Below, piece by piece: positions 4,593 through 64,000 of a stretch of DNA of 64,000 nt (its first letter is position 1; the number at the start of each line of letters is the position of its first letter). Both the position numbers and the translations under genes were made by a program. A model generated the notes under the pieces. That model made no database searches. It worked only from the letters and a program-made list of their open reading frames with translations, and was not told where the DNA came from. Source of the stretch: Cirrosporium novae-zelandiae (Eukaryota); the NCBI GenBank assembly GCA_026023565.1, contig JAPETS010000020.1, positions 248,001 through 312,000 on the forward strand. Reading direction: 5' to 3'.

Positions 4593-5184
4593 GTTGCAGG
4601 TTTTGGTTATTGACCGCCGTAAAAGTATGCTGATGATTTTCCCTGGTACATTGTACATTGTACATTGTACATTTCTTGCCAGTGATTGTAGATTGCTGTG
4701 TGTGTACCTTATGGATCCAGTGGCATGCATGCTTTTTTTTCTCCGCCATTCCGGTTACCTAGCCTTAACGGAAGAGACGCTAATTGGAGTTTAGTTGGTG
4801 TGGGACTTGGACCCGAAGGCCTTGACCGATGGAAAGTGAGTGGCCTCGCAGACAGACTCGCAGAACGCAGAAACTCGCAACCTCCAAGCTGTCGCTGACC
4901 CGCGTTCCTTTCTCATCTTTACCCGAATCCACAACCACCTCATCCCCCCCCCCATCCAAACAATATCCAACAATATCTACATCTTTACTCAAGTAATATG
5001 TCTTTTGTATCTTGACCATTTGATCCCTCCCACCCCATCTATTACGCCTACCGTTCTCCGTTGTTTCGAATTCTATCCTTGGCTCACTCAACAAATTAAA
5101 CTGCTCGCGAGAGTCTCTTGAACGAGTCTCTCCAGCGTGCGCACCTCAAACTGGATTACAATCACCCACTGGTCAAACCCTCCG

Positions 5185-12652: not shown

Positions 12653-14722
12653 ATGTCTGCCTCTGAACCTACGACACGCTCACTAGGAGCAGTTTATCGC
12701 AAATCAATTCACCCGCAAGAAGTATGATATTCCTGATCCGAACCCGTTCCTTTCCCTTCGCTAGACCAGCAGGGCTTCAACTTGACACTCATCATTCTCT
12801 CTACTCCACAGGTTCAGCCACCTCTCAAACCAGCACCAGACCTCGGTTTCGAGAGTCGAGTCCTCGATGGCGGCAAAGTTCTCTTTGAAAAAGACTACGC
12901 CATCCCCATGCGCGATGGAATTACCCTATACGCTGACGTATACCGTCCCATATCAATCCTCAAAACTCCCACCATCGTTCTCTTTGCTCCTTTTGGCAAG
13001 CATGGAGCCGTTCCCAGAGAAAAGTTCAAGAACATGGATGTAGATTTTTCAAAGCTGAGCAAATATACATATTGGGAGCTTCCAGATCCACTACTCTGGT
13101 GCGGGGAGTACGGGTATTCTCTGATATCTGTGGATCCGAGGGGTACATGGTGGAGTGAGGGCTCGGAGGCGAATTATCTGTCGCCGGAGGAGGGCAGGGA
13201 TGGGTATGATGTTGTTGAGTGGGTTGCGCGGCAGGAATGGTAGGTATACAGTTTGGGGTGCTCAAGTAATTTCTTAGTTGCGTTTATACCTTCCAATGAG
13301 TCCTCCCTCCCACTCAATAGCAGAGAAACGTTTTTTTCATTGTCAAGTACACAGTCTAACCCAGAACCAGGTCCACCGGTAAAGTCGGCTGGGGTGCAGT
13401 CTCTTACTATGCCATGTCAATCTATCAAACTGCAGTCCTCCGTCCCCCACACCTTGCGGCCATCATGCCCTGGGAAGGCATCTCGGACCTCTACCGCGAA
13501 GTCAATACCGTCGGTGGCATTCCCAACGTCCCTTTCCAACACCTTTGGATGGACATGACGGGAAACGGGCTCCGAGAAAGCGAGGACCACGCTGTTGCTA
13601 GCATCGAGCACCCGCTCTACGATGAGTGGTGGCAATCAAAAGTTGTGGATTGGAGTAAAATTGATGTGCCCGCGTTTTCGGTTACCGGGTGGTCGAGTCT
13701 AGGGCTGCATTTGAGGGGGACGATTGAAGCGTGGAAATATTTCTCATCGAAGAATAAGTACCTTCTGATCCACGTACGCAGCATCCTTGAATATTTTCAC
13801 TTCCAAATCTCGTTATCACCTAAACAAAGCTCAATCCAATAACCCTCAACATGGATGAACCGAAACTAACCCACCACTTCCCACCCTCCAGGCCGGCCGC
13901 GAATGGAGCGAGTACTACAAAGCGGAAAACATCCACAAACAAAAACTCTTCTGGGACCGCTTCCTCAAGTCCACACCCAACGAAGTCGACTCCTGGCCAC
14001 CGGTACAATACGACGTCCGCACGAACCTCACCAACTTCACCCGACACACCAGCCTCACCTTCCCTCCCCCCTCCACCCTAACCACCTTTACCCTATCCAA
14101 AAACACCTTAACACCGCTCAACGACCTAGCAGCAGCAACAAAAACACCACCAGCAAGCTACCAATCCTACCAATCCCACCGTCCCACCTCCTCAGTATCC
14201 TTCTCCCACACCTTCCAATACCGCACCGAAATAACCGGCCACGCCGCCGCAAAACTCCACATCCAATGCCTACACTATCCAGACACAGATCTCTATCTCA
14301 CCCTTCAAAAACTCGTTCCCATGTCCCCCCGTCATAATAACCACCAACCCCAACCCCAATACCAAGAAACAAAATTCCACAACCGAACCCAAACCGCCTC
14401 TGCTTCCGCCGCCCACGGCTGGCTCCGCCTCTCCCACCGCACTCTCGACCCCAAAGCCTCAACCCCATCCCTCCCAATCCACCTACATCAAAAACGCCTT
14501 TGGGTACGTCCTTGCGATGTTGTGGAGGTGCAGGTGGAGTTGTGGCCCAGTAGTACGGTTTGGGAAAGGGGGGAGGTGATGAGGTTGGTTGTTAAGGGGG
14601 CGGGGGACGAGGAAGGGGAGGATAGAACGGTGGTTAAGGGACCGAGACATGGGTTTGGGGAGGTTAGGGTTTGGTTTGGGGAGGGGTTTGAGAGTGGGGT
14701 TGTTGTGCCTGTTGTGGGGTAA
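12653..14722 (+). CDS. CocE/NonD family hydrolase (peptidase S15 / X-Pro dipeptidyl-peptidase-like); exons 12653-12721, 12812-13239, 13371-13773, 13892-14722
   Basis: IPMRDGITLYADVYRP, DPRG, DGYDVVEWVARQEWSTGKVG..SYYA (nucleophile Ser), LHLRGTIEAW and a C-terminal GWLRLSHR PepX_C-like region. Three GT-AG introns restore a single frame. Confidence 0.9.
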
Positions 14723-39806: not shown

Positions 39807-40258
39807 AGGGGTTTCTAGTCGGGCACGTGACAACGCATATTTGCCAAGTCAAACCATTTTTAATTATCAAGGCCAAAATTTGAACATGTCTACTCGAGTA
39901 GTATGCAGAGTTCATTGACCTGATATTCTACTGCTCGAAAAATATGATTCGCCTTTCCATTTCCGGTTGTCTGTTTGACACAAATTCTAGGGTTAAAGCT
40001 TTGGGAAATTTTCTTTCTCTCTTGAGCGCTCCATTGTTCACCGTGGCCGGAAATAGCCAACCTACTCACCATGGACAATCATACGAGGAATAGACAAAGA
40101 TGAACTTTCAAAACATAAAGAATTCAAGATATAATAACCCATAATATAGATTCGTTCGAGGTTATTTGGGCGTGACAGTGGTATAAAGGCTTTGCTCCCT
40201 AGTTACCTCTACGATCAATGCTCAAGATATAATCAAATTAACAGGTTTTTTGACTATC

Positions 40259-42124
40259 ATGGCTCCTGTTGCTCCTGTGGCTCATGTAAAGCCTCCAATA
40301 AAATGGGCTAACAAACGAAAGAACCCTCCTCGTCATTATCATCCTCATTTCTTCTATCAATATAAAGAGAACGAGGGCACCCATAATCCTCTTGCTAATC
40401 TTTATTTTCAGTTTACGCCTCCTGATGAGGATGCTATTGTAGTTTCCGGTGAAGTTGCTGGTGGAAGTGTCGCCGCAGGCGGTGCCGGTGGAGGAGGTGC
40501 AGGTGGTGGTGCTGGTGCCGGTGCCGGTGCCGGAAGTGCTGCTGCTAGAGGTGCTGGCGGAGGTGCCGGTGCAGGTGCAGGTGGTGGTGCAGGAGGTGCT
40601 GCCGGCGGAGGTGCCGGTGGTGGTGGCGTCGGTGCAGGAGGTGCTGGTGTTTGGATTGTTCCTAGGTTTCTGCCCAAGATTACACCACCTGCTATGGCTA
40701 CTCCGCCGTATCCTCCAATCCCAATAGGTCCGGCGACGGCAGCCGATCCCGCAAGTGCATTTGAGGCAGCGGAACTTCAAGCAGCAAAAGTTTTTCAAAA
40801 TCCTGCCGGTGTTCCTGCACCTAACCTTGGCAATGCTATACATCCTATATTCGCCTTCGCTAACTGGACGGGAACAAATGTAGCAACGCATGCTGCAATA
40901 ACTCCAGCACTCCAGCTAGCAACGCGTTTCATTGAAAGGGAGGGTTTTTTAATATGGTGGAACCAACTTCTCAGAGGCGAGGGTCACTATGATGTTCTTG
41001 GAGAAGAGTACATAGCGAACACTCACTATAACAGATATGTAAGCGTCGATGCTAATAATATACCCTTTCAAACCTGGATACGGAACGCCCTGAATATACA
41101 TGCGATTGTCCCAACAACACATACGCATACCTTTGGATGGAGCACTCCTACGCTCAGCCTAATCTGGGGCGCTACTGCTGAAACACATCTAGACTATGTG
41201 CAAACTCGGACCTTAGGTCATTGTGTTACGGAAACACTACTACATCCCGACTTTAGAACTATGGTTACCGGTCCCAATTATGCCACATTTAGCCAAGATG
41301 AAAGAAATCGAATCCAATTCTGGATAGCGATAACACTGGTAATGGAATTGTCCAGAGCAATGCATATACCCACGAGAACGACAATAACTCCCGCTCACAT
41401 TGTGGTAGAAAACGAGCCTCGGTACGACTACCGTGATGCAGAAAGGAATATTGGTCTGGCGTGGTGTAACTCAATGTTTGGAGGTATCATCAGGTGCATT
41501 AACCTTGACGAGAATTTCTACACCGACACACGATGTGCAGATGGAATGCTGGTTCGACCTTGGAGGGACCGCGCTAATGTCATATGGCATCAAGGCCGAG
41601 GCGGCGCATTGCCGGCTTCATTTTTCAATAACCTATTTAGGGCGGCTTGGTGGGCTGATATTAATATTGAAACACCAAATCTAGTGAACCAAGTAAAAGA
41701 TGCACAAACTCCGATACAGGCCCGTCATAACTTCACCAGGGGCAGTGCCGAGTGGGTTCGAATTTACCCTACTCCCTTTGTACCACCGGTTGCACACATG
41801 CCTCACTACGATCACCAGTTCTATCGGTTCGCGAGAGAAAAGAAAAATCGTGGGTATACCTATACTTTCGATAGAGCCATGACTGCAGCAACACCGGGAG
41901 GTACAACGAACTATGGCAATGAGAAGGCAAGGAAAAGAATAGGGGACGAGTTAGTACAGAGATATAGGGCACGGATATGGGACCGAAAGGAGGCTGGGGT
42001 TGCTCAGTATAATACATTTCAAATGGCATTCATTACCATCCCAGAATTCATGTACAGACGCAACTTGTGGTGGGAATGGCCTGGCGTTAGCGTTCCGTAC
42101 CGTCCTCTCAGTCCCCCCTCATAG
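40259..42124 (+). CDS. Uncharacterised zincin-like fungal protein with a Gly/Ala-rich tract; the HExxH position reads MELSR
   Basis: Single 621-aa ORF from ATG 40259. It contains IHPIF...W, ITPALQLATRF, RIQFWIAITLVMELSRA, EP and G.AW...MFGG, in the order I recall for a fungal HExxH family. Confidence 0.75.
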   Translation: MAPVAPVAHVKPPIKWANKRKNPPRHYHPHFFYQYKENEGTHNPLANLYFQFTPPDEDAIVVSGEVAGGSVAAGGAGGGGAGGGAGAGAGAGSAAARGAGGGAGAGAGGGAGGAAGGGAGGGGVGAGGAGVWIVPRFLPKITPPAMATPPYPPIPIGPATAADPASAFEAAELQAAKVFQNPAGVPAPNLGNAIHPIFAFANWTGTNVATHAAITPALQLATRFIEREGFLIWWNQLLRGEGHYDVLGEEYIANTHYNRYVSVDANNIPFQTWIRNALNIHAIVPTTHTHTFGWSTPTLSLIWGATAETHLDYVQTRTLGHCVTETLLHPDFRTMVTGPNYATFSQDERNRIQFWIAITLVMELSRAMHIPTRTTITPAHIVVENEPRYDYRDAERNIGLAWCNSMFGGIIRCINLDENFYTDTRCADGMLVRPWRDRANVIWHQGRGGALPASFFNNLFRAAWWADINIETPNLVNQVKDAQTPIQARHNFTRGSAEWVRIYPTPFVPPVAHMPHYDHQFYRFAREKKNRGYTYTFDRAMTAATPGGTTNYGNEKARKRIGDELVQRYRARIWDRKEAGVAQYNTFQMAFITIPEFMYRRNLWWEWPGVSVPYRPLSPPS

Positions 42125-55484: not shown

Positions 55485-55952
55485 CCGCAACCCCGTCCAA
55501 ACTCCAAAACCCACGCTAAAACCCCACACAAACAAGGATCCTCCATACTCCATACCCTATACCCCACTCCCCACACTTTTTGTTTCCTCATTGCGGATCC
55601 GCCCATAGATGGATGATCTACATGGCGCAGTTCTCTCGAGATGCGAAATACGAAAAATGCGGGGGAAGATATGGGGGGATATGGGGATCTACAATTGAAA
55701 GCTAAACTAAAGCATATTGGGAATTATGAGGGAAATGTTCTGGAGTTCTTAGCTTGGATCCTTGGGGGGAGAGGTGCGGAACCGAGACTGATTGACTGGT
55801 TGACTGAGGTCGCTGAGGTAGTTCAGGCGGTTGTTTGCGATTGCGGTCGCAGTTGGGGATGCGTGCATTCAGCTGACCGTGCTATGCAATACTATGCTGT
55901 GCTACGCTATGCTGTGCTGTTCTGGGATGAGAATACCGCAACCGCAACCGCA
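55485..55952. promoter_or_regulatory. Cluster of 8 AlcR-type half-sites (WGCGG/CCGCW) plus CreA-type SYGGRG sites upstream of the BVMO
   Basis: CCGCA 55485; TGCGG-AT-CCGC 55592-55602; TGCGGGG 55658; TGCGG-AA-CCG 55775-55784; TGCGG 55842; CCGCA x3 at 55936/55942/55948. CCCCAC at about 55522, 55562 and 55569. Confidence 0.6.
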
Positions 55953-56209
55953 AGATGCATGCTACTATTGCTACTGCTGCCTTGCTTCCTCCTCCCCAGT
56001 TAATAATAAAAAAAAAAAAAAGAAAAGATGTAAAAATGGAGTTTGTCTTATCTATTTAGATCGGAGCGTTTCCCTTTTCTTACTCTCAAAAATCATCAAT
56101 TCCTAAAGCCTGGTTTCATTTTTCGGACTATACGCAAGCTTATCTTATTTTATTTCACCATTTTTTATAATCGAATTTCATAGCTTAACTCAGCATCAAG
56201 CAAGAAATC

Positions 56210-57868
56210 ATGAAAGCCGAACTCCGAGAATTCGCCCGTCGAAACGACACCACCGGCCCGTATGCCGATAACCTGGATGTCGATGTCCTGATAGTAGGAG
56301 CCGGCTTCGGTGGCGTCTTCTTGCTGTACCAGTTGCGCAAGCTCGGGTTCAAAGCTGTCATCTACGAAGCCGGAACAGATCTCGGCGGCACCTGGCGCTG
56401 GAACTGCTATCCGGGAGCGCGAGTTGACTCCGAGGTTCCCGAGTACGAATACTCGATCCCTGAGGTGTGGAAGGACTGGACGTGGACCACGAATTACCCC
56501 AACTACGAAGAGCTGCGGGCGTACTTCGATCATGTTGATAAGGTGCTTGATATCAAGAAGGATTGCGCTTTTGATAGCGTTGTTGTCGATGCCCAGTTCC
56601 ATGAGGGGGAGGGCAAATGGCACGTCAAGACCGCGGATGGGCGAACGGGCAAAAGCAAGTACTTCATCGTGGCTGCTGGCTTTGCAGCCAAGCGATATAT
56701 TCCCGACTTCAAGGGCCTCGATTCATTCAAAGGAGTCATCCACCATTCTTCCTTCTGGCCGGAAGAAGGTGTCGACGTCCGTGGGAAACGCTGCGCGGTC
56801 ATCGGAACCGGCGCCTCCGGCGTTCAAATAGCCCAGGAATGGGGCCCCATCGCAGGCTCCCTCAAAGTGTTCCAACGAACGCCCAACCTCGCTATCCCCA
56901 TGGGCAAGAAATCGCTTACGCATGCCGAGCAGCAAAATGCAAAGGTGCACTACCCCAAGCTGTTCGCGCTGCGAGAAAAATGCTTCGGCGGCTTCTTCTA
57001 TAGCTTCTCGGAAAAAAACACCTTCGACGACACGCCCGAGGAGCGGGAAGCTTTCTTTCAATCCCTCTGGGACCACGGCGGCTTCCCCTATTGGCTCGGT
57101 ACCTACAAGGACATGTTGTTCGACGCCGCTGCTAACCGTGAGGCCTACAACTTCTGGGCGAAAAATATCCGCAACCGGATCGGGGACCCAAAGAAACGCG
57201 ATCTCCTCGCCCCACTGGAGCCCCCGCATGCCTTTGGCGTAAAACGCCCCTGTCTGGAACAAAACTACTACGAACAATTCAACCGACCGACGGTCGACGT
57301 CATCTGCCTCAAGCAAACACCCATCAAGGAATTCAAACCCACGGGCATCCTCACCGCAGACGGCACACTCCACGAGTTCGATGTCATCGCTATCGCCACG
57401 GGCTTCGACATAACCACAGGCGGCATGACAAACATGGGCCTCCGTAGCATCCACAACACAAGCCTAAACTCAGAATGGAAAGCAGCAGCAAATACTTACC
57501 TCGGTACCACCATCTCAGGGTATCCAAACATGTTCCACCTGTACGGCCCTCACGGCCCCACGCTGCTCAGCAACGGGCCCTCTAGCGTCGAGGTCCAGGG
57601 CCGCTGGATTGTCGACGCTATCAAGAAAATCGAACGCGACGGCTTGAAGTATGTAGATCCCACGCCCGAGGCCACGAAGGAGTGGAAGAAGAGGATCAAT
57701 GAACTGTCAGATGCTTCATTGTTTCCAACAACGAGGTCCACGTATATGGGTGGCAGCTTGCCCGGGAAGGCGTTTGAGCAGGTTAATTATGCGGGGGGCA
57801 TTCCGACGTATGCGGTGGAGATTAGGGAGGTGTTGGAGGGGTGGAAGGGGTTTAGGACTGTGAAGTGA
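56210..57868 (+). CDS. Type I Baeyer-Villiger monooxygenase (FAD/NADPH), intronless
   Basis: Rossmann motifs VGAGFGG and IGTGASG, GGTWRWNCYPG, BVMO fingerprint FKGVIHHSSFWP (FxGxxxHxxxWP), FQRTP, KRP (catalytic Arg) and ATGFD. Confidence 0.95.
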   Translation: MKAELREFARRNDTTGPYADNLDVDVLIVGAGFGGVFLLYQLRKLGFKAVIYEAGTDLGGTWRWNCYPGARVDSEVPEYEYSIPEVWKDWTWTTNYPNYEELRAYFDHVDKVLDIKKDCAFDSVVVDAQFHEGEGKWHVKTADGRTGKSKYFIVAAGFAAKRYIPDFKGLDSFKGVIHHSSFWPEEGVDVRGKRCAVIGTGASGVQIAQEWGPIAGSLKVFQRTPNLAIPMGKKSLTHAEQQNAKVHYPKLFALREKCFGGFFYSFSEKNTFDDTPEEREAFFQSLWDHGGFPYWLGTYKDMLFDAAANREAYNFWAKNIRNRIGDPKKRDLLAPLEPPHAFGVKRPCLEQNYYEQFNRPTVDVICLKQTPIKEFKPTGILTADGTLHEFDVIAIATGFDITTGGMTNMGLRSIHNTSLNSEWKAAANTYLGTTISGYPNMFHLYGPHGPTLLSNGPSSVEVQGRWIVDAIKKIERDGLKYVDPTPEATKEWKKRINELSDASLFPTTRSTYMGGSLPGKAFEQVNYAGGIPTYAVEIREVLEGWKGFRTVK

Positions 57869-58667
57869 GTGGGTCTATAGATATATATTAGTATACATAT
57901 GAATGGTTGGCCGTATCCAGGAATAGTTGGTTTCGTTTTTTGTTTTCTTGGTAATTAATGGTAATCCTTACCGTTTGCCTCTTCCTTCGTAAGAAAAGAA
58001 GTCCCATACTTAAACTTCATCAGCTTCAATTAAACTCTATCTTCTATGCTGTTTTTTGGGGTAGAGGAAGATAAAAATATAGAAGATGATATTACGTGTA
58101 GGAGTAACTAAAAGAAGGAAACATGTATATATAGGATATGAGCGTGGGAGGAGGATGGATTATTTGTAGTATCGGTGAAGAGACGAAATTTATATACCTC
58201 GAAGATTTTTTTTTTAAAGAACTGGTTGAAGAATAAAGAGGGATTTTGGGAAGGATGAAATGGTGACGGTGGTACGATCGTGATGATGTGATGCCGTATG
58301 TACTGTGAAACCGTTTCTGAATAGCTATATATATTGTAGATGAAATGAACAATAATCAAATCAAGAAAAGCAATTAGCTTGATGGAAAAATAAAACTGAG
58401 AAGATGCAATAACGATAATCATCTATTTGTTTCATAGCAACAGAATATTCTTATGATATCAATCATTTATTGGTATAGCAAAACAGGAAAGCGCCTCCTT
58501 TTCTTATCGAATAGTGGTGGAACAGTTAGTTGTGTACAAGTATTTTTTTCTTTTTTTAATTAGTACTAGAAGTGGGCGGCGTACATGTATAGCGGGGGGC
58601 TATAGATACATTCTGGGAGATGTGTGGCGAGGGTGGTACAAATTATAGACATGCAAAGGGATGATTG

Positions 58668-61600
58668 CTATCCCCATGCGTGAAAGTTCTCTAGGGTGTC
58701 TAGAAAAGATTCGTTTGGAACGTCTGAGAGTGAGAACTGGAAAGGTTCTTCGGCTATAAAGTCCGTTCGAATGCTAGCATGCTGTGAAGAAGTAGTAGAT
58801 TCAATGCCTAGATTTAGAAAGTCTGCCCTGCAGGGACAGGGTGGATTGTTGGGAAAAGGTTCGGTGGATGAGGTGCCGGAGATATCCTGCAATGCGGACG
58901 AGAGGGCCGTGGCAGCCAGAAATGCCATGTCGGATTTTTTGCCCAAGTGCCATAGCGCTTCGATGCAATATTCACATCGGGCTTTTGCTTCCTTTATTTC
59001 TGCTTCAAGGTCCCCCATATTTTCTCTGGGTCCTGGTTGATGGAAGAAATGTACAGGGTCTAGGAGGGTAAACCCAGCTTTTCCAAACGAGCGGATGAGG
59101 ACCACAGTCCAGGGCTCTGTGAGTAGGGCACCTTTGTTCAGTGCAAAGTGAAATTCTGGGGCTTGGGGGAACGATGAATCGTGGCGAGGGCAGGAACATT
59201 TGCCTAAATCGGCCATGGCGTAAGCGTGTTTCTTCCTTAGGGTTGGAACAAGAGAGGATGATCCCCGGATATTTCGTTGTGATTCTAAGCCCAGCATTTC
59301 TTCGTCGATAGTTTCGATTATGTCGGCCAGGAGTAGGGCCGCGAGGTGCCAATGACCCACCAGAACAACATACCAGGATTGGATCCGGGGTGGTAGGTTG
59401 TTATGATTGCTGATGCAGTCGAGGATGAATTGGCCGTAGATCTTATTCCAGTGTTGGTAGACTTTCAATGCATCCTGGATGCCTTCCTCAAGTCTTTCGT
59501 GTCTCACTTTTCGGGATAGTAGCGTTTGCAAGTGCGTCACTTTACGGAAGAGCAAAACTTTCACTGGAGCAGCATCAGACAACGTAGCCGCTGCATCTTC
59601 GTAAGAACAAGGCCACCGAGGAATGTGTTCGCTGTGTCGAAGACGGTTTTGTTCTAAGAAAAACTTGCCCCATAACTTCGAGTCACCACCTTTTATAAAC
59701 GTGGAACGGTAGGACGAGGGAGCGCTATTGAAAAGGTGCTCGTCTACGTCTTTGTAGGTTGGTTGAGATGTGTTCCAAGGGTGGTCATCAAGTATATCGC
59801 TGTCTTCATCCGAAACAACTAGTGGCCGTTTGTGCATTGCTGCTGAGAGAGTATCAAACATAATGCCGAGCCAGAACAAAAGATCGAACGTTTTACGGTC
59901 TCCACGGCTGAGTAGACCTGATGTGACTGGTGTAGATGCTGAATGATTCATCATGCCATTGTCTTTCATATTTCTCGTCTTCGGTACGCTTTGTTTCTCA
60001 ATCCTCTCTAGTTTGTAACGGAATGAGAAGACTTGCCGAAGTGCTGTTTCGAGAAAGACTGGAGGTCCATCAATTTCAACGAGTTGGTCTAGTTCAGCGA
60101 GCTTAGATACAGTTGTATCTGGCCTAGAAGCCCTAGAAGTGAAGGTTGAATGATTAGATTGCACCCCGTGCATCGAAGGACAGCCAAACGCATGACGAAT
60201 TGCGTTTTCTGATTGAATAGAACGATTCCGATATCTCATCTTTATTGCTCGAATATGCAAGTCAATATTGACGGGTCGTTGTGTTAGAGAAAATACAAGA
60301 TGGGCAAAAATGACCCGGAACGATTCTATGTGAGCAGTGTCTTGTAAGGCTCGGCGCGCTTGATGCCAAAATGTCTCCTGGATCGACCGGTCAAACTCCA
60401 TAGACATATAAAAAGTGGCACTGTCTGGGTCGGATGCCGAATCCCTTCCACATGTAGGATCGCTGCCCATAGATGTAGCCGGTATACTACCAAATTGACC
60501 TATTGTAGCCATAAATGATGAAAATTCTGCTGAACTTCGCTGACTTGATTGAGCCCACTGGGTGGCAAAAGCCATAATAGCCATATGAAGTGCTCGCGAG
60601 GCTGCTCTATCCTCTGATTGAGTAAGAGACCGGTCACGAAAGGCCGAGGATGCTCGGTCGAGATGACATACACGCTGACAAATTCGATTTGACCAGTTGG
60701 GGCCCCATTCTTCCATCATAGGTTCGTTTGGATCCGGACCCGTATGGTTAAAGAGTGGAACCGGGTTGACATTATAAGGACAGGTTCTTTCTGTCAACCA
60801 ACAAGACAACGCGTTTTCCATACTATCATGGTAGATTCGAATGAGGCCGTCAGCCAAGAACGAGCGATTGGCAGACGTCGCTAAACGTTCTTGAAGAGCA
60901 TATGGTGATGGATCAATGAAGGCCCTAGGCACGTCAGGGGGATGGGTAACCCCCGACTCCAGTCGCTGTCCAAATCCGGATTGTGATGAAAGCTCGCCCG
61001 AGGTAGAGGACTGGGGTATAAGCGAACCCATTCGCTGGTGACTACTACATCTTCTAGACCTCGGGACGGGTAACTCTCTGTTATCTGACGCGAATGGGTT
61101 AGAGATTAGGTCGGGGAGAATCAATTCCGCCGAATATGCTTGTGATTTGTCCACGTCTTCGCGATAAGGGAAACCAGTTTCGCTCATGGTATCCTCCAGA
61201 TTGGTAACGTGTGTCATTGGGAGGTCCTCGGGATCTTTGGCCCAGGAGCTATTGGCATTGACTTGGGAATATACAAGAGATGGAGCATCAGATGAAATAG
61301 ATGGAAGCAAATCTTGATCATCGAGTGGTGGCGAGAGTGGATAGTTCAAGAATGACGATGGCGACAGCGGTATATTCTGAGAGAATTCAAGAGAACATAA
61401 AGGTGATCCAGAGGGGATAGTTGAAACAGGTTCTCTTGTTCCCCCATTCGATATAGCAGGCTCTTCAGAGCGTTCAGAGCGTTTCAGGGCCCTTTTTTCC
61501 ACACTATTTCGCTTCCGCCGCCGCGAAATTACGTCCTGCATGGATCGAAGCCATTCCAATGTGCAATTCTTCCCAGTCTTTGCACAGTTTGAACATGGAC

Positions 61601-61993
61601 CAAGAGAAACAACATTGTCGACGCTTTGCCTATCTATGTAATCGCTAAGCACCGATTTTTAGGGAACTTGAGCTATAAAATTGAACACTTTAGTGAAATA
61701 TGCATACCTATGTCTGTACCATCACTTTCATTTAATGGGTTGTTTTGGGGCCAAGACGGGGCTGAATCTGTAGACAAGTCTGGACGCTCAGAAATAACTA
61801 TATCAGTTCTAGGAGAAACCAGGCCATCCAGTACAACAACGTCGCACGCTCGTTTACCCTTTCGACACTGATCACAGCTGCGATGTTGACGACGGCGATT
61901 CCTAGATTTGACCTTCTCTCGCTGATGTTGATACTGTTGTGTCCCGAGTTGATGTGTCGCCTGATGCTTCCAAATAGTTGACTGAGCCATCAT
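58668..61993 (-). CDS. alcR: AlcR-like Zn2Cys6 transcription factor (exons 61993-61708, 61633-58668)
   Basis: RRRQHRSCDQCRKGKRAC...CSNCAKTGKNCTLEWL resembles the Aspergillus nidulans AlcR DNA-binding domain. AlcR-family blocks RIYHDSMENALSCWLTE..CPY, FWLGIMFDTLSAAM and LTEPWT are present. A 74-nt intron GTATGC..CATAG (61707-61634) is in phase. Confidence 0.85.
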
Positions 61994-62035
61994 TGTGTCT
62001 GTCTATTTGATTCTCCCGCCTTATTGGGATACATG

Positions 62036-62195
62036 TGCGGTCAAGTAATATGTAGGGTATAATGCCCAAATCGTGAATAGAAGCTTCATTGATTTATAAG
62101 AGAGGGCAGAGATAGAACAAGGGACAAGGGGAGAATACGACCAGTTCGGGAATTGGAAATTGCGGGGAAATAATGTGCGGGGAAAGCTTGTGGGG
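62036..62195. promoter_or_regulatory. Overlapping AlcR-type and CreA-type sites upstream of the alcR-like gene
   Basis: TGCGG at 62036; direct repeat TGCGGGGAAA at 62161-62170 and 62176-62185 (TGCGG overlapping GCGGGG); GTGGGG at 62190-62195. Confidence 0.6.
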
Positions 62196-62492
62196 ATCCT
62201 TTGATTCACCGTTAATTAAAGAAGTCTGTGTTGATCCTGATTTATAGTTCTTTTCTCAGAACCAATTCCCTGTGTAGGATATGATGAGGTAGAAGACTGC
62301 ACAAATAAAGATGCATCGTGGGCGTTGACTAATGGACTAACAACGAGCACGGACCAGAATGCCTTCTCCTCCCCAACAAGAGAGATGATCTACGGAAATA
62401 TGGAGCATTCTACAATAAACAATCATCCGTATCCAATTAACGTTAATCAATTCATATGGTATATATAAGGACCAAATACTAAATACTAGCCA

Positions 62493-63905
62493 CTATTCCA
62501 GTGCCTTGTACACGGTCGTTTCAATGTCAGCACATAACCGAAGTACTGGCATATCTACATATGGTAAAATCTGAGAGCAGATCATTCCTGCAACTCCCTT
62601 TTCCCTGTCACACCACCACCACAGGTTACATATTCCAGACCACATCGCAGTGCTAGTGGACCGTCCAGTAGCACCACCACCTGTAAGCATGAAAGTTAGA
62701 CCCCAACCTTGTGGTGGGTTTCCAGGGACAGGGTAGATTTCTGGGACAGGGTTTGTAATTGGAGGCTTAGACGCGGGAATTCCCTTCCGTCCAAAGTTGG
62801 GGAAGTCGGGGATTTGGTTGCGGAACATTTCATCCACAGTCGACTTCTTCAAGATCTGTACACCCTTTGTAGGCGAAGTTCCGTCATTGAGCAAGGTTGC
62901 TAGAATTTCTACAGTGCCGTTAGTTATATAATTAACCGGAATCGGTGGATGCTGATAGCTTACGGCAATATTCGCGTGGATTTGCAAAAGCGCCTGCTCC
63001 TCCGCTGTTGAAGCAAGACGCGATATCTTCCTTGCTCTCAACGATCAATGGGCGCCGCAAGAGGTGGTCATGGCGGCTGAGTTTGCCATCAGAGTCGCGA
63101 GCATTCATGTGGGCCAAATTGGCTTTCATCGATTTCGTAGGCAACATGGAAATATTCTCGAGACCGAGGGGCTGCAAAATATATTTTTGCAGATAGTCAT
63201 TCAACGATAAACCAGTAACACGTTCAAGAACGATACCGGCCCAATCGATATTAACCTAGCAAAGGCAGTTTAAGTAAACGAGGTATCTGCAAAGGTGTGC
63301 ATCTGGAAAGTAATTAGGACTTACTCCATATTCCCAATCCTCTCCTGGTTGATGGACCAGTGGTTGCAGCATGTCGTACATATGACCGGAGAATTCATCA
63401 TAGCTAATGGGTTTGCTATAATCTCGCAGGTTGTCGTGGAAAAAAGTATATCCAAATCCAGCTGTTATTTCAATCAGCTTATGGCCCTTCATCATTCATA
63501 TTCTTCTTTCTCACCTGTATGCGTAAGCAGCATCCTCAAGGTAATTGATCTCTTCTTTTCCACCAAAGTCCCATCATCCTGTAGGACTTTAACCGCCTTC
63601 AACTCTGGACACAACTTCTCAACCTGTTCCCCATCGTCCAGTGCCAATTTCCCCTGCTCTACTAGCTGCATGCAAGCAATACCTACTATCATCTTTGTGC
63701 AAGATGCAATCCAGTAAACGCTATCGAGTGTCATGGGCTCAGTAGAGCCATAACCACGCCGTCCTGCTGCATGTGCGAAAAGTTCTTTTCCATCTTTACC
63801 AACAACAACAACGGTCGCACCAGGAATGCCCTTGACGTTGTCCACGCAAGCTTCTTCGGTCCTTTGGCGAAGGCTGGAGACTGTTTCGGCAGAGAATTGA
63901 CCCAT
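62493..63905 (-). CDS. Beta-lactamase-fold serine esterase (family VIII / LovD-like); exons 63905-63515, 63461-63325, 63255-62964, 62908-62493
   Basis: SCTK (SxxK), LLTHTAG, PGEDWEYG|VNIDWAG, SGGAG and WSG. Three in-phase GT-AG introns. Confidence 0.92.
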
Positions 63906-64000
63906 GATGAGAGGAATATCTGTAATCTTTTCAGGAGGATATGTCAACAAATCCCAAAAATTCCTCTTTGGCTTGCGTTTCTTACGAATATATACTGCTG

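What the first reader, a model, noticed from the sequence alone, without database searches (positions are those of the whole stretch)
55485..63905. Candidate AlcR-controlled BVMO + esterase module for fungal ketone catabolism
Seen: three adjacent genes (a type I BVMO, an AlcR-type regulator and a family VIII esterase) and AlcR-type sites in two promoters. No alcohol or aldehyde dehydrogenase gene is in the window. Established: BVMOs convert ketones to esters or lactones, and esterases release alcohol plus acid. Bacterial BVMO-esterase pairs do this (mekAB in Pseudomonas veronii, acmAB in Gordonia). A. nidulans AlcR regulates alcA/aldA and responds to acetaldehyde and to methyl ketones such as 2-butanone. 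Inference: this is a fungal functional analogue of mekABR, which would give AlcR's ketone responsiveness a physiological role; for example 2-butanone to ethyl acetate to ethanol and acetate. I do not know of this arrangement being characterised, but I cannot check the literature.
Basis: partly seen in the sequence, partly recalled or inferred. Interest (0 to 1): 0.82.

Follow-up and report, generated by a model that had tools for sequence, protein, structure and literature searches.

The report
Ancestral AlcR ketone-oxidation module in fungi
Three neighbouring fungal genes, a ketone-oxidising enzyme, an ester-splitting enzyme and a switch protein related to the well-known ethanol switch AlcR, stay together in distant fungi and probably form a ketone-eating unit that is older than the ethanol switch itself.

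Summary
Confirmed and extended. The window holds an intact type I BVMO (56210-57868), an AlcR-family Zn2Cys6 gene (61990-58668) and a family VIII esterase (63905-62493). The trio has consecutive accessions in 5 of 5 genomes checked, plus A. fumigatus, and spans three Pezizomycotina classes and a Lipomycetes yeast. The AlcR inverted repeat GCGG-N2-CCGC lies upstream of the BVMO and, just beyond the window, of the esterase; it is 87-fold enriched in homologous promoters. Correction: the regulator's own promoter carries CreA-type GCGGGG boxes, not that repeat. The BVMO is 69% identical to A. flavus BVMO-AFL210 (PDB 6Y48), which also sits beside the esterase; the esterase's best curated family is Gordonia AcmB (below cut-off). 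This is the genome's only AlcR-type gene, and its alcA- and aldA-like promoters lack the site. In trees, ADH/ALDH-linked AlcRs form a small clade nested among BVMO/esterase-linked ones, so this module looks ancestral and the ethanol switch derived. Substrate and inducer are untested; 2-butanone is only one candidate. Ten literature searches found no description, but key papers were not held. The scan noted the same trio before in another genome (e1-7578695).

The parts
55591..55604 (.). AlcR-type inverted repeat (GCGG-N2-CCGC core at 55593-55602), 617 bases upstream of the BVMO start
   Evidence: Only perfect match in the window; same form as the AlcR site printed in PMC13606033; conserved in homologous promoters
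55774..55787 (.). Second inverted repeat with one mismatch, 434 bases upstream of the BVMO start
56210..57868 (+). Type I Baeyer-Villiger monooxygenase, 552 aa, intronless (P0001); orthologue of A. flavus BVMO-AFL210
   Evidence: Both fingerprints, two Rossmann motifs and the catalytic K-R stretch; PDB 6Y48 E 8e-281; 69% to P0366, which is 6Y48
58668..61990 (-). AlcR-family Zn2Cys6 transcription factor, 1082 aa (P0121); one intron 61707-61634
   Evidence: Six cysteines at 39, 42, 49, 108, 111, 118; top PDB hit AlcR DNA-binding domain 1F4S, E 0.008; about 42% over the C-terminal region to an A. fumigatus protein whose cluster holds entries named alcR; single copy in G000
62161..62195 (.). Three SYGGRG boxes (two GCGGGG, one GTGGGG) 177-205 bases upstream of the regulator start; probable CreA sites, the first two also holding an AlcR half-site
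   Evidence: GCGGGG in 20 of 21 homologous regulator promoters, 8-fold enriched; the CreA consensus is recalled
62493..63905 (-). Family VIII (beta-lactamase-fold) serine esterase, 411 aa, four exons (P0241)
   Evidence: S68-x-x-K71, Y175, W363-S-G; Pfam PF00144; best NCBIfam AcmB 249 bits, cut-off 550; model pLDDT 93, TM 0.78-0.82 to LovD, EH7, EstG
63906..64000 (-). Proximal part of the esterase promoter; it runs on beyond the window end, where a perfect 14-base AlcR-type palindrome lies 243 bases upstream of the esterase start (G000:C42:312137-312150, locus L013)
   Evidence: one of 12 perfect 12-base sites in 31.4 Mb

Best explanation
A self-contained catabolic regulon. The AlcR-family factor, whose own gene is held down by glucose through CreA-type boxes, senses a carbonyl compound and binds GCGG-N2-CCGC in the BVMO and esterase promoters. 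The BVMO (FAD, NADPH, O2) inserts oxygen next to the carbonyl of an aliphatic or cyclic ketone, giving an ester or lactone; the family VIII esterase hydrolyses it to alcohol plus acid, or to a hydroxy acid, which enter general metabolism. A zinc ADH elsewhere in the genome with two such sites may supply ketone from secondary alcohols. This BVMO/esterase link is the old state of the AlcR family; the ADH/ALDH-linked ethanol switch is a later branch in Aspergillaceae. Shown: genes, motifs, linkage, site conservation, tree shape. Inferred: binding, induction, substrate channel between the two enzymes, CreA repression, role of the remote ADH.
For: Consecutive accessions for all three genes in 5 of 5 genomes picked for a shared contig, in A. 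fumigatus and by locus tag in Claussenomyces; 17 of 25 metagenome regulator loci with at least 2 kb of upstream flank carry the BVMO and/or an intact esterase, 6 carry both. Perfect site 10 times in 13,562 promoter bases against 2 in 236,914 other bases, p about 1e-11, and with a 2-base spacer (10 against 1 for all other spacers of 0-8). In ADH/ALDH-type loci the same site sits upstream of ADH and ALDH instead (L034, L036). Own alcA-like and aldA-like promoters lack it. BVMO orthologue AFL210 lies beside the esterase in A. flavus; the paralogue AFL838 turns 2-alkanones into alkyl acetates (PMC4966971). AcmA + AcmB do ketone to ester to alcohol + acetate in Gordonia (PMC6215540), and AcmB is the esterase's best family. 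ADH/ALDH-linked clade nested at SH-aLRT 100 inside BVMO/esterase-linked lineages.
Against: No expression, binding or enzyme data. 10 of 16 homologous loci have no perfect site (7 have one-mismatch sites, 3 none). The BVMO is absent from 9 of the 15 loci with an intact esterase, although some of those contigs are short. The AcmB score is far under the cut-off and bacterial relatives at 33-36% identity lie beside no BVMO in 5 of 5 plasmid loci, so the match does not fix the substrate. The closest solved esterase folds are LovD and lovastatin esterase, which take large substrates. A Fusarium homologue is induced by chlorzoxazone and pyrrocidine B. The 11-base site is not enriched genome-wide (72 against 63 for the control), so the remote ADH site could be chance. 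Full-length A. nidulans AlcR was not in the tree; P0491 stands in for it.
Confidence: 0.7

Rival explanations
1. Same regulon and chemistry, but for detoxifying or remodelling larger natural ketones and lactones (steroid side chains, terpenoid ketones, antifungal lactones or lactams) and not for eating small ketones.
For: Closest solved esterases act on statins; orthologous BVMOs are auto-labelled steroid monooxygenase; the Fusarium esterase homologue FVEG_12457 is induced by chlorzoxazone and pyrrocidine B. Fungal progesterone side-chain cleavage by BVMO plus esterase is recalled, not looked up.
Against: The labels are automatic; identity to LovD is about 30%; the A. nidulans relative responds to acetaldehyde and 2-butanone (PMC5371717); the Fusarium gene's link to a regulator was not checked and its transcript stays low; no transporter is a steady neighbour.
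Confidence: 0.15
2. An ester-centred regulon: the core is regulator + esterase (ester hydrolysis to alcohols and acids), and the BVMO is an optional add-on.
For: The esterase is the steadier partner: 15 of 39 metagenome loci against 8 for the BVMO; 22 against 14 of 57 named regulators share a contig with it in the capped hit lists.
Against: The BVMO promoter carries the site as often as the esterase promoter, and in five loci both share one divergent promoter; L038 and L051 keep the BVMO without the esterase; an unlinked BVMO could still be in the regulon.
Confidence: 0.1
3. Tailoring genes of a secondary-metabolite pathway (BVMO ring expansion plus a LovD-like acyltransferase).
For: LovD is the top structural match; BVMOs such as MoxY act in biosynthesis (PMC6315744).
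Against: No PKS, NRPS or terpene-synthase domain in the window, 29 kb downstream or in the flanks of 23 homologous loci; neighbours change from genome to genome while the trio stays; high conservation across classes.
Confidence: 0.04
4. Chance neighbours with chance motifs.
For: One site in 64 kb is not rare (22 of 100 shuffles).
Against: Linkage in two different gene orders across four classes; chance of sites in two of three given promoters about 7e-6.
Confidence: 0.01

Closest known systems
AlcR and the alc (ethanol) regulon of Aspergillus nidulans
   Same: Same protein family (recognition segment C-D-x-C-R-K-G-K-R-x-C, long spacer between third and fourth cysteine), same inverted-repeat site, probable CreA control.
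   Different: Neighbours and site-bearing targets are BVMO and esterase, not alcA/aldA/alcP/alcS; spacer 58 residues against 16; lies outside the ADH/ALDH-linked clade.
acmAB of Gordonia sp. TY-5 (acetone monooxygenase + methyl acetate hydrolase)
   Same: BVMO + esterase pair; the esterase's best curated family is AcmB over its full length.
   Different: Score 249 against a cut-off of 550; separate eukaryotic genes under a Zn2Cys6 factor; BVMO is nearest to AFL210, AFL838 and 6JDK; its relation to AcmA was not tested.
mekABR of Pseudomonas veronii MEK700 (recalled; MekA named in PMC4966971)
   Same: Regulator + BVMO + esterase logic for methyl ketones.
   Different: Unrelated regulator and, from recall, a different esterase fold; no sequence test made.
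BVMO-AFL210 of Aspergillus flavus (PDB 6Y48)
   Same: 69% identity over 552 aa, same active-site loop, same position beside the esterase.
   Different: Studied as a biocatalyst; no gene context or regulation found in the papers read. Its activity on cyclic and linear ketones is recalled from papers that were not held.
LovD transesterase and lovastatin esterase PcEST
   Same: Same fold and catalytic Ser-Lys-Tyr.
   Different: About 30% identity; no polyketide synthase partner here.

Membership tests
Type I BVMO | Fingerprint FxGxxxHxxxW(P/D) | tested here: met
   Residues 173-184
Type I BVMO | Second fingerprint and two Rossmann GxGxxG motifs, catalytic Arg | tested here: met
   Residues 59-73, 30-35, 199-204, K345-R346; aligned to 6Y48 and 5J7X
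Type I BVMO | NADPH- and O2-dependent ketone to ester conversion | not testable with these tools
   Inferred from 69% identity to AFL210
AlcR family | Zn2Cys6 domain with long C3-C4 spacer and AlcR recognition segment | tested here: met
   Cys 39, 42, 49, 108, 111, 118; two segments match 1F4S
AlcR family | Conserved C-terminal region shared with proteins named AlcR | tested here: met
   About 42% to A. fumigatus P0205, whose cluster holds A. lentulus 'regulatory protein alcR'
AlcR family | Target promoters carry GCGG-N2-CCGC | tested here: met
   sequence evidence only, binding not assayed
alc ethanol regulon | Regulator in the ADH/ALDH-linked clade, linked to alcA-type genes | tested here: not met
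alc ethanol regulon | Sites upstream of alcA-like and aldA-like genes | tested here: not met
   None with up to one mismatch in 1.1-2.6 kb upstream of two ADH1-like genes and 1.4 kb upstream of the aldA-like gene
alc ethanol regulon | Induction by acetaldehyde or 2-butanone | not testable with these tools
   No expression data available
Family VIII esterase | SxxK, catalytic Tyr, WxG box, beta-lactamase fold | tested here: met
AcmB (NF052559) | Score above the curated cut-off of 550 | tested here: not met
   249 bits; 7 of 7 full-length homologues 242-281
acmAB / mekABR-type module | BVMO and esterase genes linked and co-regulated | tested here: met
   Linkage and shared site; co-regulation inferred from the site, not measured
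acmAB / mekABR-type module | Supports growth on short methyl ketones | not testable with these tools
   Needs deletion strains
Secondary-metabolite cluster | Backbone synthase nearby | tested here: not met

The most novel reading that the evidence does not exclude
The original job of the AlcR family across filamentous ascomycetes is to switch on a secondary alcohol to ketone to ester to alcohol + acid route (remote zinc ADH, AFL210-type BVMO, AcmB-like esterase), a fungal counterpart of Gordonia Adh/AcmAB. The A. nidulans ethanol switch is a recent duplicate that carried its DNA site over to ADH and ALDH, and its response to 2-butanone, called non-physiological, is a relic of ketone sensing. 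The whole trio may also have moved sideways into a Lipomycetes yeast.
Probability: 0.5. Interest if true: 0.75.

Novelty: new variant of a known kind. Interest (0 to 1): 0.62.

Why it matters
It would give a natural role to a crystallised fungal biocatalyst whose physiology is unknown (PMC4498894 says BVMO roles are widely unknown), name the genes for fungal ketone catabolism, and explain why the textbook ethanol switch answers to 2-butanone. It also warns that many genes annotated alcR, including that of A. fumigatus, probably do not control ethanol use. The regulator-promoter pairs are candidates for ketone-inducible expression systems.

Tried and rejected
Half-site counting: no enrichment. 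The CCGCAA triple at 55936-55952 was given no weight because the region is rich in short tandem repeats. Genome-wide regulon search: of the 11 other perfect 12-base sites and 18 of the 11-base sites that were fetched, most fall in coding frames; only the zinc ADH on C48 and a fragmented flavin-monooxygenase gene on C57 looked relevant; the rest of the 11-base sites were not fetched. Second BVMO (C45) and second esterase (C83) in G000: no perfect site within the 10 kb fetched. Bacterial origin as an operon: one prokaryotic genome hit at 41%, plasmid hits at most 45% for the BVMO and 36% for the esterase, no BVMO beside the esterase in 5 of 5 loci; not supported. RNA: no RNA holder listed. Single-sequence fold of the esterase failed (pLDDT 35); repeated with an alignment. 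A 74-row tree did not finish; a 42-row quick tree was used, with L058 a long branch. Sequence look-up in earlier findings returned nothing. Literature: searches listed no paper on this trio; three wanted papers were not held. No supplements were read; supplementary expression tables of PMC10832562, PMC10512309 and PMC7377494 may bear on co-induction.
Full report
Setting. The window is G000:C42:248001-312000 of a 31.4 Mb fungal assembly. The three genes are real and intact. The BVMO ORF 56210-57868 translates to P0001; one 74-base intron gives the regulator P0121; three introns give the esterase P0241. BVMO and regulator converge; esterase and regulator are in tandem, 502 bases apart. Pfam on 14 + 71 ORFs from the window, the next 29 kb and four control ORFs found no ADH, ALDH or biosynthetic backbone domain. 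The next gene downstream is a glutaminase A.

The proteins. P0001 has both BVMO fingerprints, two Rossmann motifs and the K345-R346 stretch. Its best solved relative is 6Y48 (E 8e-281), then 5J7X and 6JDK. 6Y48 is BVMO-AFL210 of A. flavus (one passage of PMC12015234) and equals P0366, 69% identical to P0001; the active-site loop is the same as in 6Y48 and differs from 5J7X (alignment). The paralogue AFL838 makes alkyl acetates from 2-alkanones and barely takes cyclic ketones (passages of PMC4966971); AFL210's wider range is recalled only. P0241 has S68-x-x-K71, Y175 and W363-S-G and folds like LovD, EH7 and EstG. Its best NCBIfam family is methyl acetate hydrolase AcmB, full length, 249 bits against a cut-off of 550; 7 of 7 full-length homologues score 242-281. 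AcmB follows the BVMO AcmA in Gordonia acetone use (passages of PMC6215540). P0121 has six cysteines with a 58-residue spacer and matches the AlcR DNA-binding domain in two segments. It is the only AlcR-type gene found in G000.

Linkage. Five trios chosen because they shared a contig length all proved to have consecutive accessions: Lophium, Lepidopterella, Dipodascopsis (order BVMO, regulator, esterase, as here) and Lineolata, Rhizodiscina (BVMO, esterase, regulator). A. fumigatus has regulator, esterase, BVMO in a row; Claussenomyces has tags 4939-4941 and Thermoascus 4209, 4211, 4212; A. flavus has esterase and AFL210 adjacent, its regulator not seen. These cover Dothideomycetes, Leotiomycetes, Eurotiomycetes and Lipomycetes. 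Of 57 named regulator hits, 10 share a contig length with both enzymes, 12 with the esterase only and 4 with the BVMO only; the 31 misses say little because each list stops at 120 hits. A scan of metagenomes with the regulator alignment gave 39 loci. Fourteen have under 2 kb of upstream flank and show no partner. Of the other 25, 6 have both enzymes, 9 the esterase only, 2 the BVMO only, 3 (identical) an esterase remnant, 3 an ADH and/or ALDH, and 2 none. Some loci are near-duplicates, so these are not 25 independent events.

Sites. The AlcR site printed in a figure legend of PMC13606033 is an inverted repeat of the form GCGG-N2-CCGC. The window has one perfect copy, 617 bases before the BVMO, and a one-mismatch copy at -434; a perfect 14-base palindrome lies 243 bases before the esterase, beyond the window. 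In 22 homologous promoters from 16 loci the perfect site occurs 10 times in 13,562 bases, against twice in 236,914 other bases (87-fold, Fisher p about 1e-11); spacers of 0, 1 and 3-7 bases never occur and a spacer of 8 once. The perfect sites come from 6 of the 16 loci; 7 have only one-mismatch copies and 3 none. In the ADH/ALDH-type loci L034 and L036 the site lies upstream of ADH and ALDH; L035 has none. The regulator's promoter has no inverted repeat but three SYGGRG boxes at -177 to -205; GCGGGG is found in 20 of 21 homologous regulator promoters, 8-fold enriched. This fits CreA repression, which is known for the alc genes (passages of PMC5371717); the CreA consensus itself is recalled, and the boxes also hold an AlcR half-site. 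Genome-wide, the 12-base site occurs 12 times (control 2) but the 11-base site is not enriched (72 against 63). The alcA-like and aldA-like genes have no site upstream; a zinc ADH on C48, whose structural neighbours include isopropanol dehydrogenases, has a perfect and a one-mismatch site about 750 and 870 bases upstream. That last link is a lead only.

History. A 150-row FastTree and a 42-row IQ-TREE agree that the ADH/ALDH-linked regulators (L034-L036) group with P0491 and P0445 from Aspergillus (SH-aLRT 100). P0491 matches the A. nidulans DNA-binding domain at E 2.5e-22, against 0.008 for P0121. This clade is sister to one that includes the BVMO-linked L051, and both sit inside successive BVMO/esterase-linked branches (support 99, 98, 85, 95, 98, 99, 97). 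Unless the root lies inside that small clade, the BVMO/esterase link is the older state. Limits: quick search without bootstrap, root set on an ingroup clade, metagenome rows built from alignment segments, one long branch, and no full A. nidulans AlcR.

Mechanism. Most likely the factor senses a carbonyl, switches on both enzymes through the inverted repeats, the BVMO makes an ester or lactone and the esterase opens it (0.70). 2-Butanone is described as a non-physiological inducer of the alc genes; a ketone-sensing ancestor would explain that. Which ketones matter in nature is open: larger xenobiotic or steroid ketones (0.15) and an ester-centred regulon (0.10) remain possible. Against a narrow small-ketone reading: the AcmB match is family-level, bacterial relatives are not beside BVMOs in 5 of 5 loci, and a Fusarium homologue is induced by chlorzoxazone and pyrrocidine B (passages of PMC10512309 and PMC7377494; PMC5610705 treats it as a lactamase candidate).

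Novelty. Ten searches listed no paper on the trio; passages of PMC4498894, PMC10832562, PMC4117967 and PMC6315744 added nothing on it. But the main alc and AFL210 papers were not held, and database names such as 'steroid monooxygenase (CpmA)' show that curators have looked at the BVMO; I put the chance that the link is already noted in print at about one in three. Verdict: real, conserved, a new variant of the bacterial BVMO + esterase scheme, with a testable claim about the origin of AlcR. Interest 0.62.

Noticed in passing
L022:4200-5258 (G000:C48:367549-368607): Zinc ADH of a bacterial-looking type (5YLN E 3e-109; then isopropanol dehydrogenases) with two AlcR-type sites upstream; possible remote member of the regulon.
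   Followed up: partly
L093:2541-3960 (G000:C57:273040 onward): Perfect site about 280 bases upstream of a fragmented flavin-monooxygenase-like gene with stops in the match.
   Followed up: partly
P0017, P0133, P0278: The Lipomycetes yeast Dipodascopsis has the trio in the same order, BVMO 79% identical, regulator grouped with filamentous-fungal ones; possible horizontal transfer of the cluster, not tested.
   Followed up: partly
P0400, P0402, P0404: Some A. fumigatus gene models fuse esterase and regulator into one 1306-1335 aa protein; probably annotation artefacts of the tandem pair.
   Followed up: partly
L037, L049, L055: 8752-8912: Only a 50-residue esterase remnant beside the regulator; two perfect sites remain, one upstream of an ABC transporter.
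   Followed up: no
G000:C35 and C47: The two contigs give identical hits at identical coordinates; the assembly looks partly duplicated.
   Followed up: no
L015:4964-6916: 651-aa frame with a prolipoprotein diacylglyceryl transferase (LGT) domain, a mostly bacterial family.
   Followed up: no
window 40187-42124: 645-aa open frame with a Gly/Ala-rich stretch and no Pfam hit.
   Followed up: no
window 12737-14722: CocE/NonD-type (Peptidase S15 + PepX_C) hydrolase gene in several exons.
   Followed up: no
L084:4950-5915 and L085:4809-6564: Second esterase (about 53%) and second BVMO (about 50%) in G000, unlinked and without a perfect site.
   Followed up: partly
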